A DNA stretch of 64,000 nt from an uncultured virus (IMG/VR IMGVR_UViG_3300025316_000017) (lineage: Duplodnaviria > Heunggongvirae > Uroviricota > Caudoviricetes), in IMG/VR virus record IMGVR_UViG_3300025316_000017, one strand, 5' to 3'. Within the stretch, counting starts at the first letter, position 1. Every line of letters begins with the position of its first letter. Positions 4,629 to 35,379 of this stretch are shown here, one piece after another. Below the pieces are notes generated by a model, which saw only the letters and a list, made by a program, of their open reading frames with translations, was not told the DNA's origin and did not search any database. The translations under genes were made by a program, and so were the position numbers.

Positions 4629-7600
4629 ATGGCACTCTATCAAGTAGAAGCGCCAGATGGGGAATTGCTCAAGATCGAAGGACCTGAGGGTGCTTCTGAA
4701 CAAGAGGTAATTGCTCAAGCGCAAAAGCTATACACCCCAGCCCAGAAAGACACTGGATTTACTGGGGCAGCTAAGTCTTCTTATGAGAAGATGAAAGGCG
4801 AGGGCGCTCTTGTGCTTGGCAAACTTGGTTTAATGGATACCAAAGAAGCCGAAGACTATTACAACAGTAAAAAGAAAAAATCAGAAGCCATGTTTCAGCC
4901 CACTGAAAAGGGTTGGGATGAAGCTCCATTTGAAAAGTTTAAAGAATTATTAGGCAGTTCTGCCCCCTATATGGTTGCTCCGTTGGGAGCCGCAGCCACA
5001 GTAGCTGCTGCACCTGAAGCAATTGCTGGCGCTGGGATTGGAATGATTGGCGCTCCAGCTATTGCTGGTTTTGCTGCTAACGTTGGTCAATTCACTGGAA
5101 CCAACTTAGGTCGGCAAGTTGACGAAGGAAAAAGTTTAAACGATGCAAATTTGGCAACAGCAGCCGCAGCCGCTGTTCCGCAGTCCATTTTAGATATTGC
5201 TTCTGACCATATGATTCCCGGTGTTAAAAATATATTTGGCAGAGCGGGCATTAAATTAGGAGACAAAGAAGCCGCAGCAGTAGCTAAACAACAATTAGCT
5301 AATAGCATTCCTAAAGGTAAAATTGCCACCGCTATAGAGTATGGTGGTAAAGCTGCCCAGACTGCTGCAATAGAAGGTTTAAACGAAGCTGGTCAGCAGG
5401 TATTTGAAAGATTACAAGCTGGTTTGGATTTGACTGATCCGCAAGCTCGTCAAGAATACTTTGATAACTTTATTGGCGGTGCAGTGCTTGGTGGAGCTAT
5501 ATCCGTTCCCGGTCATTATTATGACAAAAACGTAGAGCAACCACGTCAAGCTAAGTTATTAGCTTTGCAGCAACAAGCAGAAGAACGTAAAAAACAAGAA
5601 GAACAACAAGCTGCCGAACAAACTCAGTTGCAAGAAACTTATCAAAATTTAAACGTTCCACAAACAACCAATCTGTTGCCAGCTCCAGAAGCTGCCGCTC
5701 CTATTCCAGAAAAGAATATGGCTCCTGCAATTCAGCAGGATATGTTGCAAAATTACAACGGTATGTTTGATCAACAAGCTATTGATAATGTTTTTGGAAA
5801 AGGTGCGTTTGATCAGATTAACGAAAAACGGGAAATGGAACATGGCAAACCCCGTTTAAAAGAAATGTCTATCGAAGACTTGGCTCATGCTGGGGCTAAA
5901 CCAGAAGATCTAAGCCGTCTTTTAACCGTTCAACACGACTACACCAACGTAAAAGAAAAGAACTTTGCTCCTGCCCAGATTTTAAAAATGGCGGAAAAGA
6001 AAGGTATTGAAACAGGTACAGGCGGTTTTAACTCTTTCCTTATGCGTACTACGGGGACGGACAATCTACAAGATATGACTTACGCCCAGCGCCATGCTGT
6101 GGCAAAAGCTTTGAATTCAGTTCCAGTTAATGAAGGTGCTAAAACCATTCTTCCCGAAGGGCATAGCAATGCCACTCCTTGGCATCCAGCAGACTATGAT
6201 GATGCAGTAAAAGCAGTACAGGCAGACTTAGCTCAAAACAAAGAATTAAGCCAAGCGGATGTCATGAAGACTATTCACGGCTCTACATTCTTGGGTCAGG
6301 GTAATGCCCCCAGAGCTGAAGATGCTAAGTTAATGCTTGATGAAATGGTGCGTAGGGGTGATGTTAGTTTAAATGTCAGACCAGATAAATCTTCTACGCC
6401 AGATAATCCAAAGTTTTTACAGACTGTTATTCCCGCCCACCCAATGGCTAATACTCCAGCGGGCATGGACGTTCGTAGAGAAGTACTTGGCGAAGGCAGA
6501 GGCAGACGTGAAGTATTTAGCCTTTACGAAGATGGTCAACGTATGGGTAGCTTCTCTACCAAACAAGAAGCCGAAGAGCACGGCATGAGCCGTTTGCACG
6601 ATGATATTCTTAAACAAACCATTACTGCTGCACCGCATCAATTATTACCAAACGGTGAAATACATCCATTGGCAAGACGCTATGCGGAAATGGCTAAAAA
6701 CGAATTAAACGAGCGCCAAGGCATTTCCCGTGATTTTAGGGGTATAACCACATCCCAAGGATTAGAAGGCGCTAATGAGCGTTTAGCAAAGCTTGGTATC
6801 TTTAATGAAAAGGTTCAAGAGTTAGCACCTGAAATCAAAAAAGATCTTGAAAATCGTTTACGTAAATACGGATTAGCAAGCGTAGCTGTTCGTATGATGG
6901 ATTCCATAGCCAATGGTGCGGCTAATGCGGCTTACCATGCTGGTTTAATTAAGATGGCTGTAGATGCGGAAGATCCAATGGGTGAGTTAGATCATGAATC
7001 TATTCACGCATTAATTGATTTGGGTGCATTTAGACCTGATGAACTCCGTGTATTGGAGAATAAAGCCAAGTCAGAATGGCTACAGAAATATATCAAAGAT
7101 ACTGGCAAGTATGACTTGTACAAGAAACAGTACGAGTCCGAAGGTCGGGACATGAAAACCTTTGAATCGGATATGCTTGAGGAATCTGTAGCTGAAGCGT
7201 TTAAACACTTTAATAAACAGCAGCCACCAGCCGGGATGGTTGGTAGCCTGTTTAAACGCATTAGTAAGTTTTTTGAAGCGGTACGCAATGCATTTACAGG
7301 TGCTGGTTTTAAAACCGCAGATAATATTTTTGGTGGAGTAACTCGTGGTGAGTTTAAACCTACTAAAGAAGCGGCAGCAGAAACAAAATATAGTTTAGAA
7401 AATAAGTCAAAAGTTGAGCAAGCTAAGTTCTATGAAAATGAAATCCAAGACTTAGTTAAGAAAGTTGGCAATCGTATTGCTGGAATGAAGTCTGAAGAGA
7501 CTTTGGATGACGTTAAAAAGTCTGTTGAAAAATTACAACAGTACACCGCTGAAGGCATTAAAGGCAAAGATTGGTATGAGAATTCAGCTAAAGCAGTTCT

Positions 7601-10600
7601 TGATGCGTTTAATGGCGATCCAATCCTAGCTGAAAAGTTCTTTCAAATTATTGCTATTACTTCTGCAAATACCGAAGTTGCAGCAAACTTTACTAAAGCT
7701 CTAAAAGCTTGGACTCAGTTCTCTGAAGGCAAGCCTATTAAAGTTGGCACTAAAGATATCAATAAGAAAATTGATTCTCTGCTTAACTTTGGCGAAGACT
7801 GGGGCGGTCGCAAGACTAATACGTTCTATTCCAACTTAATGGAAGCGATGGAAGGCAAAGACACTGGTCGCTCTACCATTGACTTACATATGACTAGGAT
7901 GATTTTTGATAAAGATGCTCCTACTGATGCTCAGTATGAGTTGGCTGAGAATATGGTGCGTTTACTGGCTTCTAAAGTGGGGTTAGCCCCAAGGCAAGTT
8001 CAAGCCGCCTCATGGGTTACGCAAAAAGCCAAGTCTACCTATGAATACTACAAACAAAAAGGTTGGAAAAAGAATTTAACCGATGCGCAATTAAAAGAAT
8101 TTGCTTTTGAAAAAGCCATTGCAGATTATTCTCACTTGATTAAAGCTAATGTTAAAAAGCTGCCTGTTACAGAAGCTTTGCGTGAACCGTCAGAAAAAAT
8201 TAAATCCCGTACTCAAAATATTACTGGTGAAGTAATTCCATCAGTACAGACTCCTATGGGTCAAGCTGAAGAAATGGCTTACAAATATAAAGAAAAAATT
8301 ACCAAACAGATTGCTAGGTCGCCTATCGTACAAAATATTGTTAAGTCTTTAGGTATTAATAGTAAAGTGCGTGTGACTGTTGGGTCTGGAGCGTATGCTA
8401 ACAAAGTTAACCCCAACCTAATCGTTCAGATAGTTAATAGCAACCCAGAACACGCTCATCAGGATGCTTTGGATATTGCTAACGCTATGTCTTATGTGTT
8501 TAAACAAGATGCTACTCCGATGTTTAAAGCAGATGAGCGGTTTAGGGATTTAGACCAGCTTGGCTTTAAATTTAAATTTGACGCTGCTGAACTAACCCTT
8601 ACACAACAAAAGAAAATATTAAAGATCATTCAAGATAAATTTGGCGAAGATGCTGGATTTACAAAAATGCGTGGGAACGAATTGGTTATAATTAATTATC
8701 GTGGCGAGGATGGCAAACCATCTTTAGTTCCCGATGAAGATTTTGTAAAAGGTCTTGCTGAAATTGCAGATGAAATTAGCAAGGTTTCTAAAATAGATTC
8801 CAAAGTAAACTTTGGAGCACAATCGGAGTATCCAAAACATGACTGGAAAACAGAGCCTAGCGGAACTAGCATCATCTCTGGGATTCAAGGACGCAGACCC
8901 GAACGATCCAATATACAAAGAAAATTGGACAATCTCGGTAAATCCTTCACCTCAGACCTCAGAAAAATTGTCAGAGAATCAGGACAAGAGCCAAAATTCA
9001 GCTTAAAGAACGCTCCACCACAACGCTTAACTACTTTAGAAAAGCAGGAATCAGCAGGTGAGCGTTTAAACAACACAATACGTGACGTAAAAGACGCAAC
9101 ACAAAACCAAGATTTTTGGACTGGTCTACGCAACAACTGGGTAGATAAAGGATCAGGTCTTACTAGAACTCTGCAAAATCAAGAAGTCTATAAGGATGGA
9201 GTGCTCCGTGCTGACTTATTGTCTCGTGCTTACGCTCAGGTTATTAACTTGGTTAAAAATGGTTTACAAAGCGGTATTCCAATTATCAATAATGATGGTT
9301 CAATCATTATTAAAACTGATGCCGTTAATAACTTAGCCAACAGCCATCTAATTGCTGATAAATTAGATGAAAATGCGTACGTAAAAGCGTCTGGTTTATC
9401 AGGTCGTGGATTCGTAGCTGAAGTAGCCCGTGCTATGCGTGGTAAAGAAATTTTGGAAGAAGATGCACGTCTTGGTTTAAAACGTGAACTTCAAGTTACT
9501 CCTGAGCAAATTGCTTGGGCTGAACAACAAATTAAAAACGTACCAGAACTTAATCAAATTTTTAGCATTTGGAAAAACGTTAATACTGGATTAGTAAATC
9601 TGTGGGAACAAGCTGGATTACTTGATAAAACAGAAGCTGACTCTTACCGTGCTAAAAAACATTATGTATCTTTGGCGGCTTCCAAAGCCGACTTGGAAGA
9701 AATGATTAACAGTCAATATAGCGGCAATGCTCCCGGTCTTAAATCTACCAAGAAAATATTTAAACTTGAAGGATCTGAATTAGATCGTAATATTTGGGAG
9801 AACGTGGATAAACAATATGCGGCTATGTTAACTGCTGCTTATCAAAACCACATACGTAAAACTGCTGTAGATCAGCTACGTTCTATTGGTATGGCGACCA
9901 CTACCCGCATTAATCAAAAGGGTAATGAAGTACCACTATACCAAGGCGATCCTAACATTAATCTACGCTATAAAGAAAATGGAAAAATTGTCAATGCGAT
10001 TGTTCATAATCAAACTGACCTAGCCGCCTTTGAAGCGATGCATTATGAACTAAACCCAATCATGAAGTTCATGGCTGGTTCTACTAAACTGCTTCGTGCT
10101 GGCGCTTTATTAAACCCAATGTTCTGGATACGTCAGCTTATTAAAGACCCAATCCATGCTAACTTGGTAGCCAATAGCGGTATTGTTACCCCATTTCATT
10201 CCGCTGGCGAGTTCATGCGCATTTTGATGAAAGACTCCGCAGAAGCTAAATTATTGGCAGAGCGTGGTGTAATTGGTCAATACGATAGCACCATAGACAT
10301 TTATGATTATTTAAATCAAGTCGGAAAAGAAAAATCCAAACCAAGTACATTGGATAAAGCTTTGCATAAGATGATGCAAGTACACGAAGCTTCTGATGCG
10401 GCAACTCGTGTAGCCATCTTTAAGAAAGAAAAAGCCAACGGATTAGCTAAAGGAATGAGCGAAGCTGATGCTACAAACTTTGCCGTCATGAAAGCCCGTG
10501 AGTCAATTAACTTTGCTGTACATGGAAATTCTAAAACCTTGTTCTATGCTAGACACATGGTTCCATTTTTGTCGGCTTCCATCACTTCTTTGGACACTGT

Positions 10601-11624
10601 ATACCGTGCCGCTACAGGTTACGGTTTACCGCCCGCAGAGAAGGCTGCCGCACAAAAGCTGTTTAAACAACGTGCATTTATAATGGCAGCAATGTGTTTT
10701 GCTTACGCAATGCTGATGCAAAATGACGATGACTATAAAAAGTTGCCCGACTATGTTAAAGACAACAACTGGCTCATCAAAAATCCTACTGGTGATGGAT
10801 TTATTAAAGTACCGACCCCTTTCGAGGTCGCCTTCCTTTTCAAAACAATCCCCGAAGCGGCAGTACGTTATATGTACGGAACAAGCACGGGGAAAGAGGT
10901 ATTACACAGTTACTGGGAAGGTGCAACAAACAACTTACCCGGTAATGCGCTGCCAATTCCACAATTGTTTAAACCAGCTATTGAAACAGTAACTAATCAT
11001 AGCTTCTACACAGGAAACACAATTGAAAGTTTAGGCGATGCTCGTTTGCCCGTAGAAGACCGTGGGCGTAATGCTAGTGAAATTTCCAAAAAACTCAGCA
11101 AGTCTGGACTCAGCTCCCTTGGTTTATCACCAGCAAAAATTGATAATTTAATTCAAGGTTACATGGCAGAACTTGGCACGTTTACTACAAGCATGGCAGA
11201 CAAAGCCGTATATGCCGCAGAAGGTAAGACTCCACCCGCTACTAATCTTGCAAGAGACCCATTCTTCAAGTCATTCTTAACAGATCCTAATGCAGATAAA
11301 GCGGTAAGTGATTTTTATCAATTAGAGCAAAATGCTAATCAAGTGGCACAAGAATTTACACAACTTAAAGCCCAAGGCAAGGCTGAAGAAATTCAATCAT
11401 TTGTTAAAGATAAAGAAAAAATGCAACAAATTGGAGCTGCGCCAGCCCTACGCAGAATTGGTCAAAGCATGACGGCAATTAAAAAACAAATTAATTTTGT
11501 TCATGAAAATCAATCCATGTCACCCGAACAACGTAGAGATGAAATTAATCGTTTGACTGCTCAGTACAATCGGGTAGCTGAACAAGGTGTGAAACTCGCT
11601 TCTTCACTCGGACTTCCACGTTAG
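4629..11624 (+). CDS. Large polyvalent internal virion/ejection protein (zincin motif, HhH-like domain, LPD38-like C-terminus)
   Basis: 2331 aa, last gene of ejection cluster; HESIH...EESVAEAF; DDDYKKLPDYVKDNNW...IKVPTPFE...N.SFYTG resembles LPD38. Confidence 0.7.
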   Translation: MALYQVEAPDGELLKIEGPEGASEQEVIAQAQKLYTPAQKDTGFTGAAKSSYEKMKGEGALVLGKLGLMDTKEAEDYYNSKKKKSEAMFQPTEKGWDEAPFEKFKELLGSSAPYMVAPLGAAATVAAAPEAIAGAGIGMIGAPAIAGFAANVGQFTGTNLGRQVDEGKSLNDANLATAAAAAVPQSILDIASDHMIPGVKNIFGRAGIKLGDKEAAAVAKQQLANSIPKGKIATAIEYGGKAAQTAAIEGLNEAGQQVFERLQAGLDLTDPQARQEYFDNFIGGAVLGGAISVPGHYYDKNVEQPRQAKLLALQQQAEERKKQEEQQAAEQTQLQETYQNLNVPQTTNLLPAPEAAAPIPEKNMAPAIQQDMLQNYNGMFDQQAIDNVFGKGAFDQINEKREMEHGKPRLKEMSIEDLAHAGAKPEDLSRLLTVQHDYTNVKEKNFAPAQILKMAEKKGIETGTGGFNSFLMRTTGTDNLQDMTYAQRHAVAKALNSVPVNEGAKTILPEGHSNATPWHPADYDDAVKAVQADLAQNKELSQADVMKTIHGSTFLGQGNAPRAEDAKLMLDEMVRRGDVSLNVRPDKSSTPDNPKFLQTVIPAHPMANTPAGMDVRREVLGEGRGRREVFSLYEDGQRMGSFSTKQEAEEHGMSRLHDDILKQTITAAPHQLLPNGEIHPLARRYAEMAKNELNERQGISRDFRGITTSQGLEGANERLAKLGIFNEKVQELAPEIKKDLENRLRKYGLASVAVRMMDSIANGAANAAYHAGLIKMAVDAEDPMGELDHESIHALIDLGAFRPDELRVLENKAKSEWLQKYIKDTGKYDLYKKQYESEGRDMKTFESDMLEESVAEAFKHFNKQQPPAGMVGSLFKRISKFFEAVRNAFTGAGFKTADNIFGGVTRGEFKPTKEAAAETKYSLENKSKVEQAKFYENEIQDLVKKVGNRIAGMKSEETLDDVKKSVEKLQQYTAEGIKGKDWYENSAKAVLDAFNGDPILAEKFFQIIAITSANTEVAANFTKALKAWTQFSEGKPIKVGTKDINKKIDSLLNFGEDWGGRKTNTFYSNLMEAMEGKDTGRSTIDLHMTRMIFDKDAPTDAQYELAENMVRLLASKVGLAPRQVQAASWVTQKAKSTYEYYKQKGWKKNLTDAQLKEFAFEKAIADYSHLIKANVKKLPVTEALREPSEKIKSRTQNITGEVIPSVQTPMGQAEEMAYKYKEKITKQIARSPIVQNIVKSLGINSKVRVTVGSGAYANKVNPNLIVQIVNSNPEHAHQDALDIANAMSYVFKQDATPMFKADERFRDLDQLGFKFKFDAAELTLTQQKKILKIIQDKFGEDAGFTKMRGNELVIINYRGEDGKPSLVPDEDFVKGLAEIADEISKVSKIDSKVNFGAQSEYPKHDWKTEPSGTSIISGIQGRRPERSNIQRKLDNLGKSFTSDLRKIVRESGQEPKFSLKNAPPQRLTTLEKQESAGERLNNTIRDVKDATQNQDFWTGLRNNWVDKGSGLTRTLQNQEVYKDGVLRADLLSRAYAQVINLVKNGLQSGIPIINNDGSIIIKTDAVNNLANSHLIADKLDENAYVKASGLSGRGFVAEVARAMRGKEILEEDARLGLKRELQVTPEQIAWAEQQIKNVPELNQIFSIWKNVNTGLVNLWEQAGLLDKTEADSYRAKKHYVSLAASKADLEEMINSQYSGNAPGLKSTKKIFKLEGSELDRNIWENVDKQYAAMLTAAYQNHIRKTAVDQLRSIGMATTTRINQKGNEVPLYQGDPNINLRYKENGKIVNAIVHNQTDLAAFEAMHYELNPIMKFMAGSTKLLRAGALLNPMFWIRQLIKDPIHANLVANSGIVTPFHSAGEFMRILMKDSAEAKLLAERGVIGQYDSTIDIYDYLNQVGKEKSKPSTLDKALHKMMQVHEASDAATRVAIFKKEKANGLAKGMSEADATNFAVMKARESINFAVHGNSKTLFYARHMVPFLSASITSLDTVYRAATGYGLPPAEKAAAQKLFKQRAFIMAAMCFAYAMLMQNDDDYKKLPDYVKDNNWLIKNPTGDGFIKVPTPFEVAFLFKTIPEAAVRYMYGTSTGKEVLHSYWEGATNNLPGNALPIPQLFKPAIETVTNHSFYTGNTIESLGDARLPVEDRGRNASEISKKLSKSGLSSLGLSPAKIDNLIQGYMAELGTFTTSMADKAVYAAEGKTPPATNLARDPFFKSFLTDPNADKAVSDFYQLEQNANQVAQEFTQLKAQGKAEEIQSFVKDKEKMQQIGAAPALRRIGQSMTAIKKQINFVHENQSMSPEQRRDEINRLTAQYNRVAEQGVKLASSLGLPR

Positions 11625-25165: not shown

Positions 25166-25365
25166 TGTTCAGATTGTCGATGAAAAACGGTAGGGTCTGA
25201 ACGTGTATTGCCGATACTATGGTTAGTGCGTTAGAGATCGGGAGGGGATGGCGAAGACAGAATCCCTCGCACGAAAAGTCTGTCGGGTCAATCGAAGCAT
25301 GGGGCACGATTGTGAAGGCAACCTAGTTTAGGCTAGGTCTGCCCTCCCAAAGGGCAAGACCGAGA
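25166..25365 (+). ncRNA. Candidate structured ncRNA with pseudoknots
   Basis: Six or more complementary segment pairs, several needing G-U pairs on the + strand; no long ORF. Confidence 0.55.
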
Positions 25366-32835: not shown

Positions 32836-33027
32836 TTAGTTTGAATGAGCGGGAGCAGAGCAAATGCCCTGTTCGATTAACTGTGATGCAGTACGACCAA
32901 AGAACCCTTGCAACTGCCACGCAAGACCTGAGTCAATCAAGAACTGCCAAGCTTGAATCACTTCATCCTGAGAACCCTCTTCAAAGCCCTCAGCCAAAGC
33001 CACTGCACGATATGAATTTAAAGCCAT
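32836..33027 (-). CDS. Conserved early phage protein (LAWQLQGFFGR family)
   Basis: QFLIDSGLAWQLQGFFGRTA; GGAGG SD. Confidence 0.7.
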   Translation of the reverse strand: MALNSYRAVALAEGFEEGSQDEVIQAWQFLIDSGLAWQLQGFFGRTASQLIEQGICSAPAHSN

Positions 33028-33046
33028 GTTGAATCCTCCGTTGTAG

Positions 33047-33106
33047 TGATGCAAGATCGCATCCTCGTTCGCACTGGTATGCAATGCGAACTGAGATTAA
33101 ATCTCT
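33047..33106 (-). repeat. Structured leader repeat copy 1
   Basis: 60 nt, 50/60 identical to 33266-33325. Confidence 0.85.
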
Positions 33107-33251
33107 AAGGTGAAAAGAAAAAGTTTGCTGGTACTGCACCTACCTCGGTTTCGATAGGTGTTTCGTACTTGAGAAATACTGGCTCATTGTTTTTGTCATT
33201 GCCTACCCAGTATTGGGTTGGATATTGAGTTACTGGTAATTGATTTTGCAT
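33105..33251 (-). CDS. Small early protein (48 aa)
   Basis: MQNQLPVTQY...; AGGAGG SD. Confidence 0.6.
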   Translation of the reverse strand: MQNQLPVTQYPTQYWVGNDKNNEPVFLKYETPIETEVGAVPANFFFSP

Positions 33252-33265
33252 AAAACCTCCTGTAA

Positions 33266-33325
33266 TGATGCGAGATTGCATCCTCTGCCCCACTGGTATG
33301 CAATGGGGCATGAGATTAAATCTCT
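33266..33325 (-). repeat. Structured leader repeat copy 2
   Basis: 60 nt with compensatory stem changes relative to copy 1. Confidence 0.85.
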
Positions 33326-33329
33326 TTTG

Positions 33330-33670
33330 AGAGCCACTTGTTTTTCTACGCTCTGCTATCGCACGTATATCCGCATTTATTTATTGACGCTCTCGGATCG
33401 CACGTCATAAAGAACCGTATCGCTACGGAGCATAGTCAACTCGCTAGGGGCGCTCATCGCCTAGGTCACAGTTCTCGTCTCGCATCTCGTTCGGTTGCCT
33501 GATCCCATCAGGGGGCAGAGCCTACTAGCCTTTGACGTACAGTTTTAAGTCCTGATATTGACTACCCTCGTTTTAGATCTGACTGGTATCAGCGATCAAC
33601 CCTTTACTTTATCCACGCACTGGTCTCTGACGTGTCGCTGGTTACTCAGCGTTTTTAAATCTACTACTAA
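33330..33670 (-). ncRNA. Candidate long structured leader/ncRNA
   Basis: Multiple hairpins including a GNRA-capped one and a long-range 7-bp stem; no credible ORF. Confidence 0.4.
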
Positions 33671-33966
33671 TGCAACAGACTCAATACTAGTACATTTGTT
33701 TAAACACGTACGACTTTTTTTTCACCAACCCCAAAACCTGCATTTTTAGCTATCAGGAGCGTGGTTTAAACCCTACAACTTAGTCAAGTATTTCCACGAG
33801 CGGGCAAAAAGCGAAGCGAACCAGCGTTTAAATTAATGTAGTGGCTCACCTGATGAGCTAGTAGGAGAGAATAAAAATATTTTGATGATCACCAGTGCAC
33901 ACTGCGAACACACTGCGAACCTCATTGACTTACAGGGTTTAAACAGTCAACATATGCGATGGTCGT

Positions 33967-34910: not shown

Positions 34911-35156
34911 ATGGATTACGTTAGTGTTAGTGATCGTGTTGGCAATGATCCTATGAGCGATCAAAACTTTTTATTGCGTAGCACCATCATTGATCTGGAA
35001 ACAATGAGGACACCATATGAACCAACATCTCGTGGCTACATGGCACTTACAACTGCCATCAGTATCTTGCGGCAAATGCAAGTTGTTTATGACGTGGGGA
35101 ACTCTTGCTCGCCAGCAAGACCTAAATTGAAAATAGTAAAGGAATGCAATGACTGA
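34911..35156 (+). CDS. Hypothetical protein
   Basis: ORF; start uncertain. Confidence 0.45.
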   Translation: MDYVSVSDRVGNDPMSDQNFLLRSTIIDLETMRTPYEPTSRGYMALTTAISILRQMQVVYDVGNSCSPARPKLKIVKECND

Positions 35157-35379
35157 AAAACAAAAGCGGGTATATGATTTTATTCAAGCGTTTATTCGTA
35201 CTCATGGGTTTGCACCTAGCTATACGGAAATTGCTAAAGGATTAGAACTACGTAGCAAATCCAATATTCATCGTTTGGTGCACAATTTAAAAGACAAGGG
35301 TTTAATTAAAATTAATCCCCATATGGTAAGAAGTATCAAAATGATTGATGCAACCGTTCGTGAGATGGCTGCCCTTTGA
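35149..35379 (+). CDS. LexA-type winged-helix DNA-binding domain protein (no peptidase domain)
   Basis: TEKQKRVYDFI...GFAPSYTEIA...SKSNIHR...L..KGLI. Confidence 0.8.
   Translation: MTEKQKRVYDFIQAFIRTHGFAPSYTEIAKGLELRSKSNIHRLVHNLKDKGLIKINPHMVRSIKMIDATVREMAAL

What the first reader, a model, noticed from the sequence alone, without database searches (positions are those of the whole stretch)
33042..33325. Two 60-nt leader repeats with fully compensatory stem changes
Seen (minus strand): AGAGATTTAATCTCA-[stem]-TTGCATACCAG-[stem]-GAGGATGCRATCTYGCATC, each just upstream of a GGAGG SD of consecutive early genes. The stem is GTTCGCA/TGCGAAC in one copy and TGCCCCA/TGGGGCA in the other: eight of the ten differences form four compensatory pairs while the loop is invariant. 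Loop UUGCAU can pair with downstream AUGCRA (pseudoknot), competing with a GAUGC/GCAUC hairpin. Inference: a functional RNA or ssDNA structure such as an RNase III-type processing site, protein-binding antiterminator, small ribozyme or hairpin promoter.
Basis: partly seen in the sequence, partly recalled or inferred. Interest (0 to 1): 0.75.

Follow-up and report, generated by a model that had tools for sequence, protein, structure and literature searches.

The report
RNase III-type sites before early genes
The two repeats are long RNA hairpins of the kind that the host enzyme RNase III cuts in phage T7 early messages, so they are most likely an ordinary way of splitting and stabilising this uncultured phage's early transcript; the more unusual thing is the string of small RNA pseudoknots just upstream.

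Summary
The repeats are real: 10 differences in 60 nt, 8 forming four compensatory pairs. Relatives give 40 distinct versions. They show one 24-bp hairpin with two 2x2 internal loops (94.8% of cells paired, 14 of 20 pairs with double changes). The loop is not invariant, and the proposed pseudoknot has no compensatory change. Length, distal-box pairs, register and position before a Shine-Dalgarno match T7 early RNase III sites. A model built only from these phages ranks T7 R1.1 first in T7's first 8 kb, though weakly (E 0.029). A relative has hammerhead ribozymes in equivalent slots. Predicted nicks: 33283/33282 and 33064/33063. The GAUGC/GCAUC hairpin would then cap the new 5' end. Cleavage was not shown and the host is unknown. 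Copies A and B look like two older alleles brought together by recombination. Upstream lies a roughly 360-nt leader of shuffled, covarying H-type pseudoknots with no Rfam match; it is the more interesting lead. Verdict: new member of a known kind.

The parts
33683..33705 (-). Promoter-like site of the early operon: GTTTAAAC palindrome followed by a -10-like TAGTAT (relatives have TG-C before the hexamer). Start site inferred near 33677.
   Evidence: Conserved block in 9 aligned leaders; coordinates. Not flagged by the sigma-70 scan, so this is inference.
33326..33680 (-). Non-coding leader of about 360 nt made of short structured modules that are shuffled between related phages
   Evidence: no Rfam match
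33598..33634 (-). Leader pseudoknot, type 1, first copy (4-bp stem, 13-nt loop, A-rich linker, 3-4 bp second stem)
33563..33597 (-). Leader pseudoknot-like module, type 2
   Evidence: 5 variants; second stem swaps TACC/GGTA and TGCC/GGCA
33540..33563 (-). Leader pseudoknot-like module, type 3
   Evidence: Both stems paired in 10 of 12 regex variants; CAG/CTG and GAG/CTC swap
33486..33531 (-). Leader module with conserved AGUAG / CGAACGAG flanks around a variable hairpin
   Evidence: 13 variants; most conserved block of the leader alignment
33370..33406 (-). Leader pseudoknot, type 1, second copy
33331..33367 (-). Leader pseudoknot, type 1, third copy, ending 6 nt before element A
33267..33324 (-). 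Element A: 24-bp hairpin (5' arm 33324-33301, loop 33300-33296, 3' arm 33295-33272). Predicted RNase III nick between 33283 and 33282; alternative 5'-capping hairpin 33282-33267.
33256..33260 (-). Shine-Dalgarno GGAGG after element A
33105..33251 (-). 48-aa ORF of unknown function; its stop codon ends on the first base of element B
   Evidence: No Pfam or PHROG hit; relatives in 7 of the early regions compared, counting the window and its near-identical relative (family f5)
33048..33105 (-). Element B: same fold (5' arm 33105-33082, loop 33081-33077, 3' arm 33076-33053). Predicted nick between 33064 and 33063; capping hairpin 33063-33048.
33035..33039 (-). Shine-Dalgarno GGAGG after element B
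32836..33027 (-). 63-aa DUF7417 gene, followed by further small genes, a phrog_6361 protein, a MoxR-type AAA ATPase and a VWA protein
   Evidence: PF24192 E 2.9e-10 and neighbours

Best explanation
Each repeat is a host RNase III processing signal of the T7 early type. The transcript folds into a 24-bp hairpin with two 2x2 internal loops (shown by covariation). Host RNase III binds it and most likely nicks only the 3' strand, at GAG|GAU (inferred from register with T7 R1.1; one of the two positions between the canonical cuts is a mismatch). The upstream piece keeps a 3'-terminal stem-loop that would resist 3' exonucleases. The downstream piece refolds GAUGC with GCAUC into a hairpin starting at its first nucleotide, which would hide the 5' monophosphate from RNase E and leave the Shine-Dalgarno free (inferred). 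Element A separates the structured leader from the first gene; element B separates the first gene from the second. As a side effect the repeats serve as joints at which small early genes are swapped between phages.
For: Fold: 20-pair structure on 32 sequences, 94.8% of 618 cells paired, 14 pairs with two-sided change, covariation score 0.562 against 0.181 shuffled (0 of 500) and at most 0.092 when slid. RNAalifold finds 18 of these pairs unaided. The lower stem was not used to select members and has two-sided changes in 5 of 6 pairs. Anchor-only search: 21 of 39 distinct viral matches have 8 of 8 upper-stem pairs, 20 of these with an SD; the rest look like chance. Loop indifference (0-33 nt) fits the finding that loop sequence and position do not set the cut (PMC1540722, Results). 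Modal pairs at +4 G-C (22 of 40), +3 A-U/U-A (33 of 40), +9 U.G (22 of 40) and +10 U-A (23 of 35) are the E. coli proximal and distal box preferences (box numbering is my inference from that paper). T7 hairpins before genes 0.3, 0.5 and 1.1 share CUCA on the 5' arm and N|GAU on the 3' arm; two of the three also have AGUG at -12 to -9. The published R1.1 cut is at nt 5887 (PMC8708148), and the model's best T7 hit, 5848-5905, aligns that cut with GAG|GAU. Position: always ahead of an SD-like motif (40 of 40), in front of 17 different gene-family labels. In 5 of 8 two-copy loci the internal copy begins within the upstream stop codon. In relative L100 two type II hammerheads fill stop-codon-to-SD slots downstream of the element. 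The cut product pairs its first nucleotides with probability 0.80-0.99 in both window copies, and a complementary CAUC follows in 33 of 40.
Against: No cleavage or 5'-end data. The host and its RNase III preferences are unknown. The T7 hit is weak (13.7 bits, rough E 0.029), and the four other T7 early hairpins were not among the 10 hits at E up to 10. RNase III sites lack a strong consensus (PMC8708148), so sequence likeness cannot prove membership. Both window copies match only 3 of 5 box preferences; the family ranges from 2 to 5 in 33 elements, with no background computed. Copy A has G-C at proximal-box position 2, an E. coli binding antideterminant. On full-length RNA the long hairpin barely wins in copy B (-23.2 against -22.8 kcal/mol), and its central pair has probability above 0.5 in only 23 of 40 members, while the capping hairpin dominates in 15. 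The anchors and 8 upper-stem pairs were selection criteria, and the sequences are related, so counts are not independent events. 7 of 40 members lack the capping hairpin.
Confidence: 0.75

Rival explanations
1. A two-state cis switch or protein-binding site that is not cut. The long hairpin forms first during transcription and relaxes into three short hairpins, which tunes translation or antitermination of the next gene, possibly through a bound protein or RNase III binding without cutting.
For: The two folds are nearly equal in energy in copy B, and the capping hairpin dominates in 15 of 40. The long hairpin is the best fold at the 53-nt prefix, before the last strand exists. The unpaired C.A and A.G positions are strongly conserved.
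Against: Neither fold covers the SD. The first short hairpin is fully paired in only 22 of 40 with no two-sided change. No RNA-binding regulator stood out among 67 ORFs scanned in Pfam (small ORFs were mostly not scanned). Hammerheads in equivalent slots of a relative point to cleavage.
Confidence: 0.13
2. The repeats are kept mainly as DNA recombination joints for swapping early genes, as PeSL cassettes are in T4-type phages, and the hairpin acts in DNA.
For: Close relatives differ by whole element-plus-gene units: the window has A, 48-aa ORF, B, DUF7417, while L014 and L017 have a B-type element then DUF7417, L072 has B then the 93-aa gene, and L016 has a B-type element then the 30-aa gene. 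PeSL precedent: PMC2839356, abstract.
Against: 29 of 37 loci with an element have a single copy upstream of the marker gene. Homologous exchange does not need compensatory pairing. Wobble pairs favour the transcribed strand (lower stem: 21 G.U against 3 A.C cells). The position before an SD is fixed.
Confidence: 0.06
3. A small pseudoknotted ribozyme or ligand-binding RNA built on the invariant loop.
For: The loop hexamer can pair with AUGCRA in both window copies.
Against: Fully paired in 5 of 40; 61% of cells; no two-sided change. The loop tolerates replacement by 31-33-nt inserts in 8 of 40. No Rfam match.
Confidence: 0.02
4. A hairpin promoter or an intrinsic terminator.
For: Hairpin directly upstream of early genes.
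Against: No RNA polymerase family among 67 ORFs scanned. A conserved promoter-like block lies about 360 nt upstream. There is no U-tract, and neither copy was called by the terminator scan.
Confidence: 0.02

Closest known systems
Phage T7 early RNase III processing signals (R1.1 cut at nt 5887; the hairpins before genes 0.3, 0.5, 1 and 1.3)
   Same: Long imperfect hairpin between early genes just upstream of the ribosome-binding site; about 11 bp from cut to loop; U.G/U-A distal box; CUCA on the 5' arm and N|GAU on the 3' arm in the same register; free loop. The R1.1 product is also predicted to fold a near-terminal 5' hairpin.
   Different: Symmetric 2x2 loops here; T7's 5' arm is one base shorter in the model alignment. 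A conserved capping hairpin competes with the lower stem. One or two copies per phage were found, not five. Unrelated phage group (terminase closest to HTVC027P-type phages, 57-59%) with no RNA polymerase found. Cleavage not shown.
PeSL cassettes of T4-type phages (PMC2839356, abstract read)
   Same: Repeated small regulatory cassettes flanking non-essential genes, at which genes are gained and lost.
   Different: PeSLs are sigma-70 promoters plus terminator stem-loops; this element has neither a promoter nor a U-tract.
Type II hammerhead ribozymes between phage early genes (Rfam RF02276)
   Same: Occupy stop-codon-to-SD slots in a relative that also carries this element (L100).
   Different: Self-cleaving; the element has no hammerhead core and no Rfam match.
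Type III antitoxin RNAs (ToxI, antiQ, CptI) and phage pseudo-ToxI, for the upstream leader only (PMC5086642, passages read)
   Same: Tandem H-type pseudoknots of about 34-40 nt with A-rich linkers; a phage precedent for decoy use exists.
   Different: No Rfam hit to any antitoxin family; modules are of several different types, not near-identical repeats; no toxin family found among the ORFs scanned.

Membership tests
T7-type RNase III processing site | Helix of about two turns (about 22 bp) with at least 11 bp between cut and loop | tested here: met
   24-position duplex, 20 pairs, 94.8% paired; 11 positions from the canonical 5'-arm cut to the loop, the first being the A.G mismatch; criterion from PMC1540722
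T7-type RNase III processing site | Distal box U.G / U-A at +9, +10 | tested here: met
   Both window copies; U.G 22 of 40, U-A 23 of 35 in the family. 7 of 40 members have stems too short for a full box.
T7-type RNase III processing site | Proximal box preferences (G-C, W-W, A-U, W-W) without antideterminants | tested here: inconclusive
   Modal family pairs fit at +2 to +4, but copy A has G-C at position 2, +1 is a mismatch in 36 of 40, and each window copy meets 3 of 5 preferences. The rules are for E. coli; the host is unknown.
T7-type RNase III processing site | Internal loop at the cleavage centre, limiting the cut to one strand | tested here: met
   Position -1 is unpaired in 40 of 40 (38 C.A, 2 G.A). 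Double-cut targets are paired there in about 90% (PMC6212723); internal loops limit cleavage to one bond (PMC1540722).
T7-type RNase III processing site | Loop sequence and length free | tested here: met
   29 different loop regions in 40 elements, 0-33 nt beyond a 10-bp stem
T7-type RNase III processing site | Intercistronic or leader position just upstream of an early gene's ribosome-binding site | tested here: met
   SD-like motif after 40 of 40; 20 of 21 in the anchor-only set
T7-type RNase III processing site | Actual cleavage by host RNase III | not testable with these tools
   No RNA holder listed; only contigs could be laid
Any Rfam 15 family (ribozyme, riboswitch, leader) | Covariance-model score at or above gathering threshold | tested here: not met
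   None over the element or leader in the window; only chance-level hits at E up to 10; none over the elements in 18 related loci
PeSL cassette | Contains a sigma-70 promoter and a terminator stem-loop | tested here: not met
   Neither called over the elements
PeSL cassette | Gene gain and loss bounded by the repeats | tested here: met
   Gene order in close relatives; excised circles were not tested
Type III antitoxin RNA (leader) | Tandem H-type pseudoknots of 34-40 nt | tested here: met
   Both stems paired in 28 of 33 distinct anchor-only matches
Type III antitoxin RNA (leader) | Near-identical repeats upstream of a terminator and a cognate toxin gene, or match to an antitoxin family | tested here: not met
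   Mixed module types; no Rfam hit; no toxin family among scanned ORFs

The most novel reading that the evidence does not exclude
The cut at element A exists to release the roughly 395-nt leader as a stable RNA with a protected 3' end. That RNA is a mix-and-match array of small pseudoknots and other folded modules which related phages shuffle as they shuffle early genes. It would act in trans in the first minutes of infection as a panel of decoys for host RNA-binding defence or decay proteins (for example type III toxins), an RNA counterpart of a host-takeover gene cluster. That the leader is structured is shown by covariation; release, stability and decoy function are not shown.
Probability: 0.12. 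Interest if true: 0.8.

Novelty: new member of a known kind. Interest (0 to 1): 0.33.

Why it matters
The repeats themselves add an uncatalogued sequence family to a mechanism long known from T7, and earlier notes in this scan report the same kind in other phages, so a specialist would not be surprised. Two things give some value. The 40 natural variants with a predicted single cut make a ready test set for RNase III specificity outside E. coli and for a cut-then-cap design. And the element marks the 3' end of a covarying pseudoknot-array leader that matches no Rfam family; if that RNA is released and acts on host defence it would be a new kind of early phage RNA.

Tried and rejected
Rfam: nothing over the element at gathering threshold or at E up to 10. 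blastn against 50,697 phage records: one 41-nt match inside a coding region, not the element. Pattern GCATACCAG..GATGC: 115 stretches, almost all chance. Genome collection: the element pattern gave 0 matches, and the marker protein gave one 4.6-kb MAG contig, which I do not take as a host assignment. No whole genome is held for the window. Sequencing runs: no RNA holder listed; two runs laid were contigs, probably DNA, and show no ends. The model found no credible copy around the terminase genes of three cultured relatives (one partial hit, E 0.61). Of 63 loci chosen by the marker protein, 26 had no element by descriptor; the model found hits at E below 0.001 in 6 of these, two of them training members; I did not check how many of the rest are truncated. 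Rows dropped before the family counts: 39 of 82 descriptor rows, mostly 3-mismatch rows at shuffle level, removed by eye; 43 kept, 40 unique; 32 of the 40 were aligned, the 8 with long loop inserts left out; L023, a clear member with two stem mismatches, was missed by the descriptor. An early idea of boxA-like antitermination motifs was dropped for the GGCTCT class, which is the 3' strand of a pseudoknot stem; the GTTCTTT class was not tested. The idea that the capping hairpin is unique was weakened: T7 R1.1's product also folds a near-terminal hairpin. Literature: 9 searches showed no paper on this element. Six short motifs were absent from 6 supplementary files of PMC10690425, but 3 files were not searched and the supplement of PMC5737381 could not be read, so prior description in those catalogues is not excluded. 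Earlier-findings look-ups by place and by sequence, and by words for a pseudoknot-array leader, were empty.

Full report
Setting. The window is a tailed-phage genome. A terminase small subunit (33967, PHROG 51), terminase large subunit and capsid genes run on the plus strand; a block of small genes, a MoxR-type AAA ATPase and a VWA protein run the other way from about 33250. Calling this block 'early' is inference from its small genes and its layout. The closest cultured terminases are from HTVC027P-type phages at 57-59% identity. The host is unknown; an Rfam Betaproteobacteria-1 RNA at 25166-25288 hints at a betaproteobacterium.

Observation. Both copies are present as described. They differ at 10 of 60 positions, 8 of them in four compensatory pairs. 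Each folds far better than shuffles (z -3.6 to -4.4), and each precedes GGAGG and a start codon. No Rfam family matches. There is no third copy in the window.

Family. Pattern and protein searches of IMG/VR followed by a descriptor gave 84 exact-anchor hits in 588 kb of partly redundant loci against 0 in shuffles. After dropping 39 of 82 rows at background level, 43 rows and 40 unique elements remained. Among 63 loci chosen only by a neighbouring protein (window included), 29 had one copy upstream of it, 8 had two and 26 had none by descriptor. An anchor-only scan with no pairing requirement split cleanly: 21 of 39 distinct viral matches had 8 of 8 upper-stem pairs and 20 of those an SD; in metagenome contigs 8 of 109 had 8 of 8, the rest being chance.

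Structure. The conserved fold is one long hairpin: a 6-bp lower stem, a 2x2 loop, 4 bp, a second 2x2 loop (C.A, A.G), a 10-bp upper stem and a free loop. On 32 aligned members it has 94.8% of cells paired and two-sided changes at 14 of 20 pairs, well above shuffled and slid controls, and RNAalifold recovers 18 pairs without guidance. The lower stem was not selected for and covaries at 5 of 6 pairs. The loop runs from 0 to 33 nt and in 8 members holds an inserted 31-33-nt module. G.U outnumbers A.C 21 to 3 in the lower stem, pointing to the transcribed strand. Members are related, so these counts are not independent events.

Comparison with RNase III substrates. From PMC1540722 (abstract, passages, first parts of Results and Discussion read): an 11-bp helix from cut to loop is the minimum, the loop is not read, the distal box prefers U-A and U.G, the proximal box prefers G-C, W-W, A-U, W-W, and internal loops can limit the cut to one strand and leave protective 3' hairpins. 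Numbering the boxes from that paper's minimal substrate (my inference), the family's modal pairs are U.G at +9, U-A at +10, G-C at +4 and W-W at +3 and +2. The fit is imperfect: each window copy meets 3 of 5 preferences, and copy A has an E. coli antideterminant at proximal position 2. T7's early hairpins, fetched from V01146, share CUCA and N|GAU in the same register. The R1.1 cut is at nt 5887 (PMC8708148, passages); the cut positions I used for the hairpins before genes 0.3 and 0.5 (890, 1468) are recalled. A covariance model built only from the phage elements ranks T7 5848-5905 first in T7's first 8 kb and aligns the known cut with GAG|GAU, but weakly (13.7 bits, rough E 0.029), and misses the other four early hairpins. 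In double-cut E. coli targets the two positions between the cuts are paired in about 90% (PMC6212723, passages); here one is unpaired in 40 of 40, which suggests a single nick. T7's polycistronic transcripts are processed by host RNase III (PMC6938266, passages).

Mechanism. Shown: fold, position and covariation. Inferred: RNase III nicks the 3' arm between 33283/33282 and 33064/33063. The downstream product would begin with GAUG and pair it at once (probability 0.80-0.99 for the first three bases in the window copies); a matching CAUC follows in 33 of 40 members, in four of them around an extra inner hairpin. A base-paired 5' monophosphate end is a poor RNase E substrate (PMC3997798, section 6 read). 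The long hairpin is the best fold until the last strand is made, and afterwards the two folds are close in energy, which leaves room for a timed window or a switch (first rival). Independent support that these slots are cleavage points: relative L100 carries the element first and then two type II hammerheads, each running from a stop codon to an SD.

Why two copies with four compensatory pairs. Both stem types exist singly elsewhere directly behind the leader: A-type in L001, L003-L010, B-type in L002 and L014-L017. The window's leader is closest to those of B-type carriers L014 (95%) and L002 (94%), and an A-type element in front of a homologue of the 48-aa ORF occurs in the more distant L042. 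So the window most likely gained 'A plus ORF' by recombination. The compensatory changes then record divergence between lineages, not change after a recent duplication (inference). The element precedes 17 different gene-family labels across loci (a few labels are spurious short frames), much as PeSL cassettes bound variable genes in T4-type phages (PMC2839356, abstract).

The leader. Between a conserved promoter-like block (33705-33683) and element A lie about 360 non-coding nucleotides built from modules that differ in number and order between phages. One module, present three times in the window, is an H-type pseudoknot: 43 variants and 186 hits against 0 shuffled, and in an anchor-only scan both stems pair in 28 of 33 distinct matches with six different second-stem pairings. 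Two more pseudoknot-like modules and two other conserved modules also recur. None matches Rfam. Size and fold recall type III antitoxin repeats (PMC5086642, passages; PMC3475682 seen in a listing only), but family criteria are not met. Its function is open; a cut at element A would release it.

Novelty and verdict. The element is in no Rfam family, and I found no paper on it in nine searches; two large catalogues could be checked only in part. The kind is long known, and earlier unchecked notes of this scan describe similar modules in other phages. It works like a T7 RNase III site (confidence 0.75); membership awaits a cleavage test. Interest 0.33, most of it owed to the adjacent leader.

Noticed in passing
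window 33680-33326 (minus strand): Leader made of shuffled structured modules, including three copies of a covarying H-type pseudoknot and two further pseudoknot-like modules; no Rfam match. Deserves its own follow-up.
   Followed up: partly
whole window: The palindrome GTTTAAAC occurs 49 times against about 1.8 expected from base composition alone, three times between 33698 and 33944 and at the promoter-like site of most relatives; possibly a binding or uptake/packaging signal.
   Followed up: no
L100 2271-2330 and 2577-2636: Two type II hammerhead ribozymes in stop-codon-to-SD slots of the early operon of a relative that also has the element.
   Followed up: partly
L021, L026, L029, L033, L035, L052, L076, L080 (element loops); also free in leaders of L018, L022, L027: A C-rich-loop hairpin module of 31-33 nt sits inside the loop of the element in 8 of 40 variants and elsewhere in other leaders, showing that leader modules move.
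   Followed up: no
L396 800-8500 (OL906435.1, Planktothrix phage Pag-Yong1): A cultured phage with the same gene layout has its own repeated spacers (stop codon, long hairpin, SD) and a repeated GGTTCAG-N-CTGAACC palindrome between early genes; a different sequence family, not hit by the model.
   Followed up: partly
window 25166-25288 (+): Rfam Betaproteobacteria-1 RNA (68 bits) upstream of the HNH and primase-helicase genes.
   Followed up: no
window 35149-35379 (+): LexA-type DNA-binding domain protein directly upstream of the terminase large subunit; a candidate binder for the GTTTAAAC palindrome, untested.
   Followed up: no
window 33428-33415 and several relatives: A GCGA-tetraloop hairpin followed by GTTCTTT recurs in leaders, sometimes directly before the element; an antitermination role was not tested.
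   Followed up: no
window 4629-11624 (+): 2331-aa protein with LPD38 and DUF7178 domains, probably an internal virion protein.
   Followed up: no
L034 2093-2154, L078, L081, L040, L041, L047, L048: More divergent versions of the element (24-32 bits) with altered central pairs, not included in the family counts.
   Followed up: no
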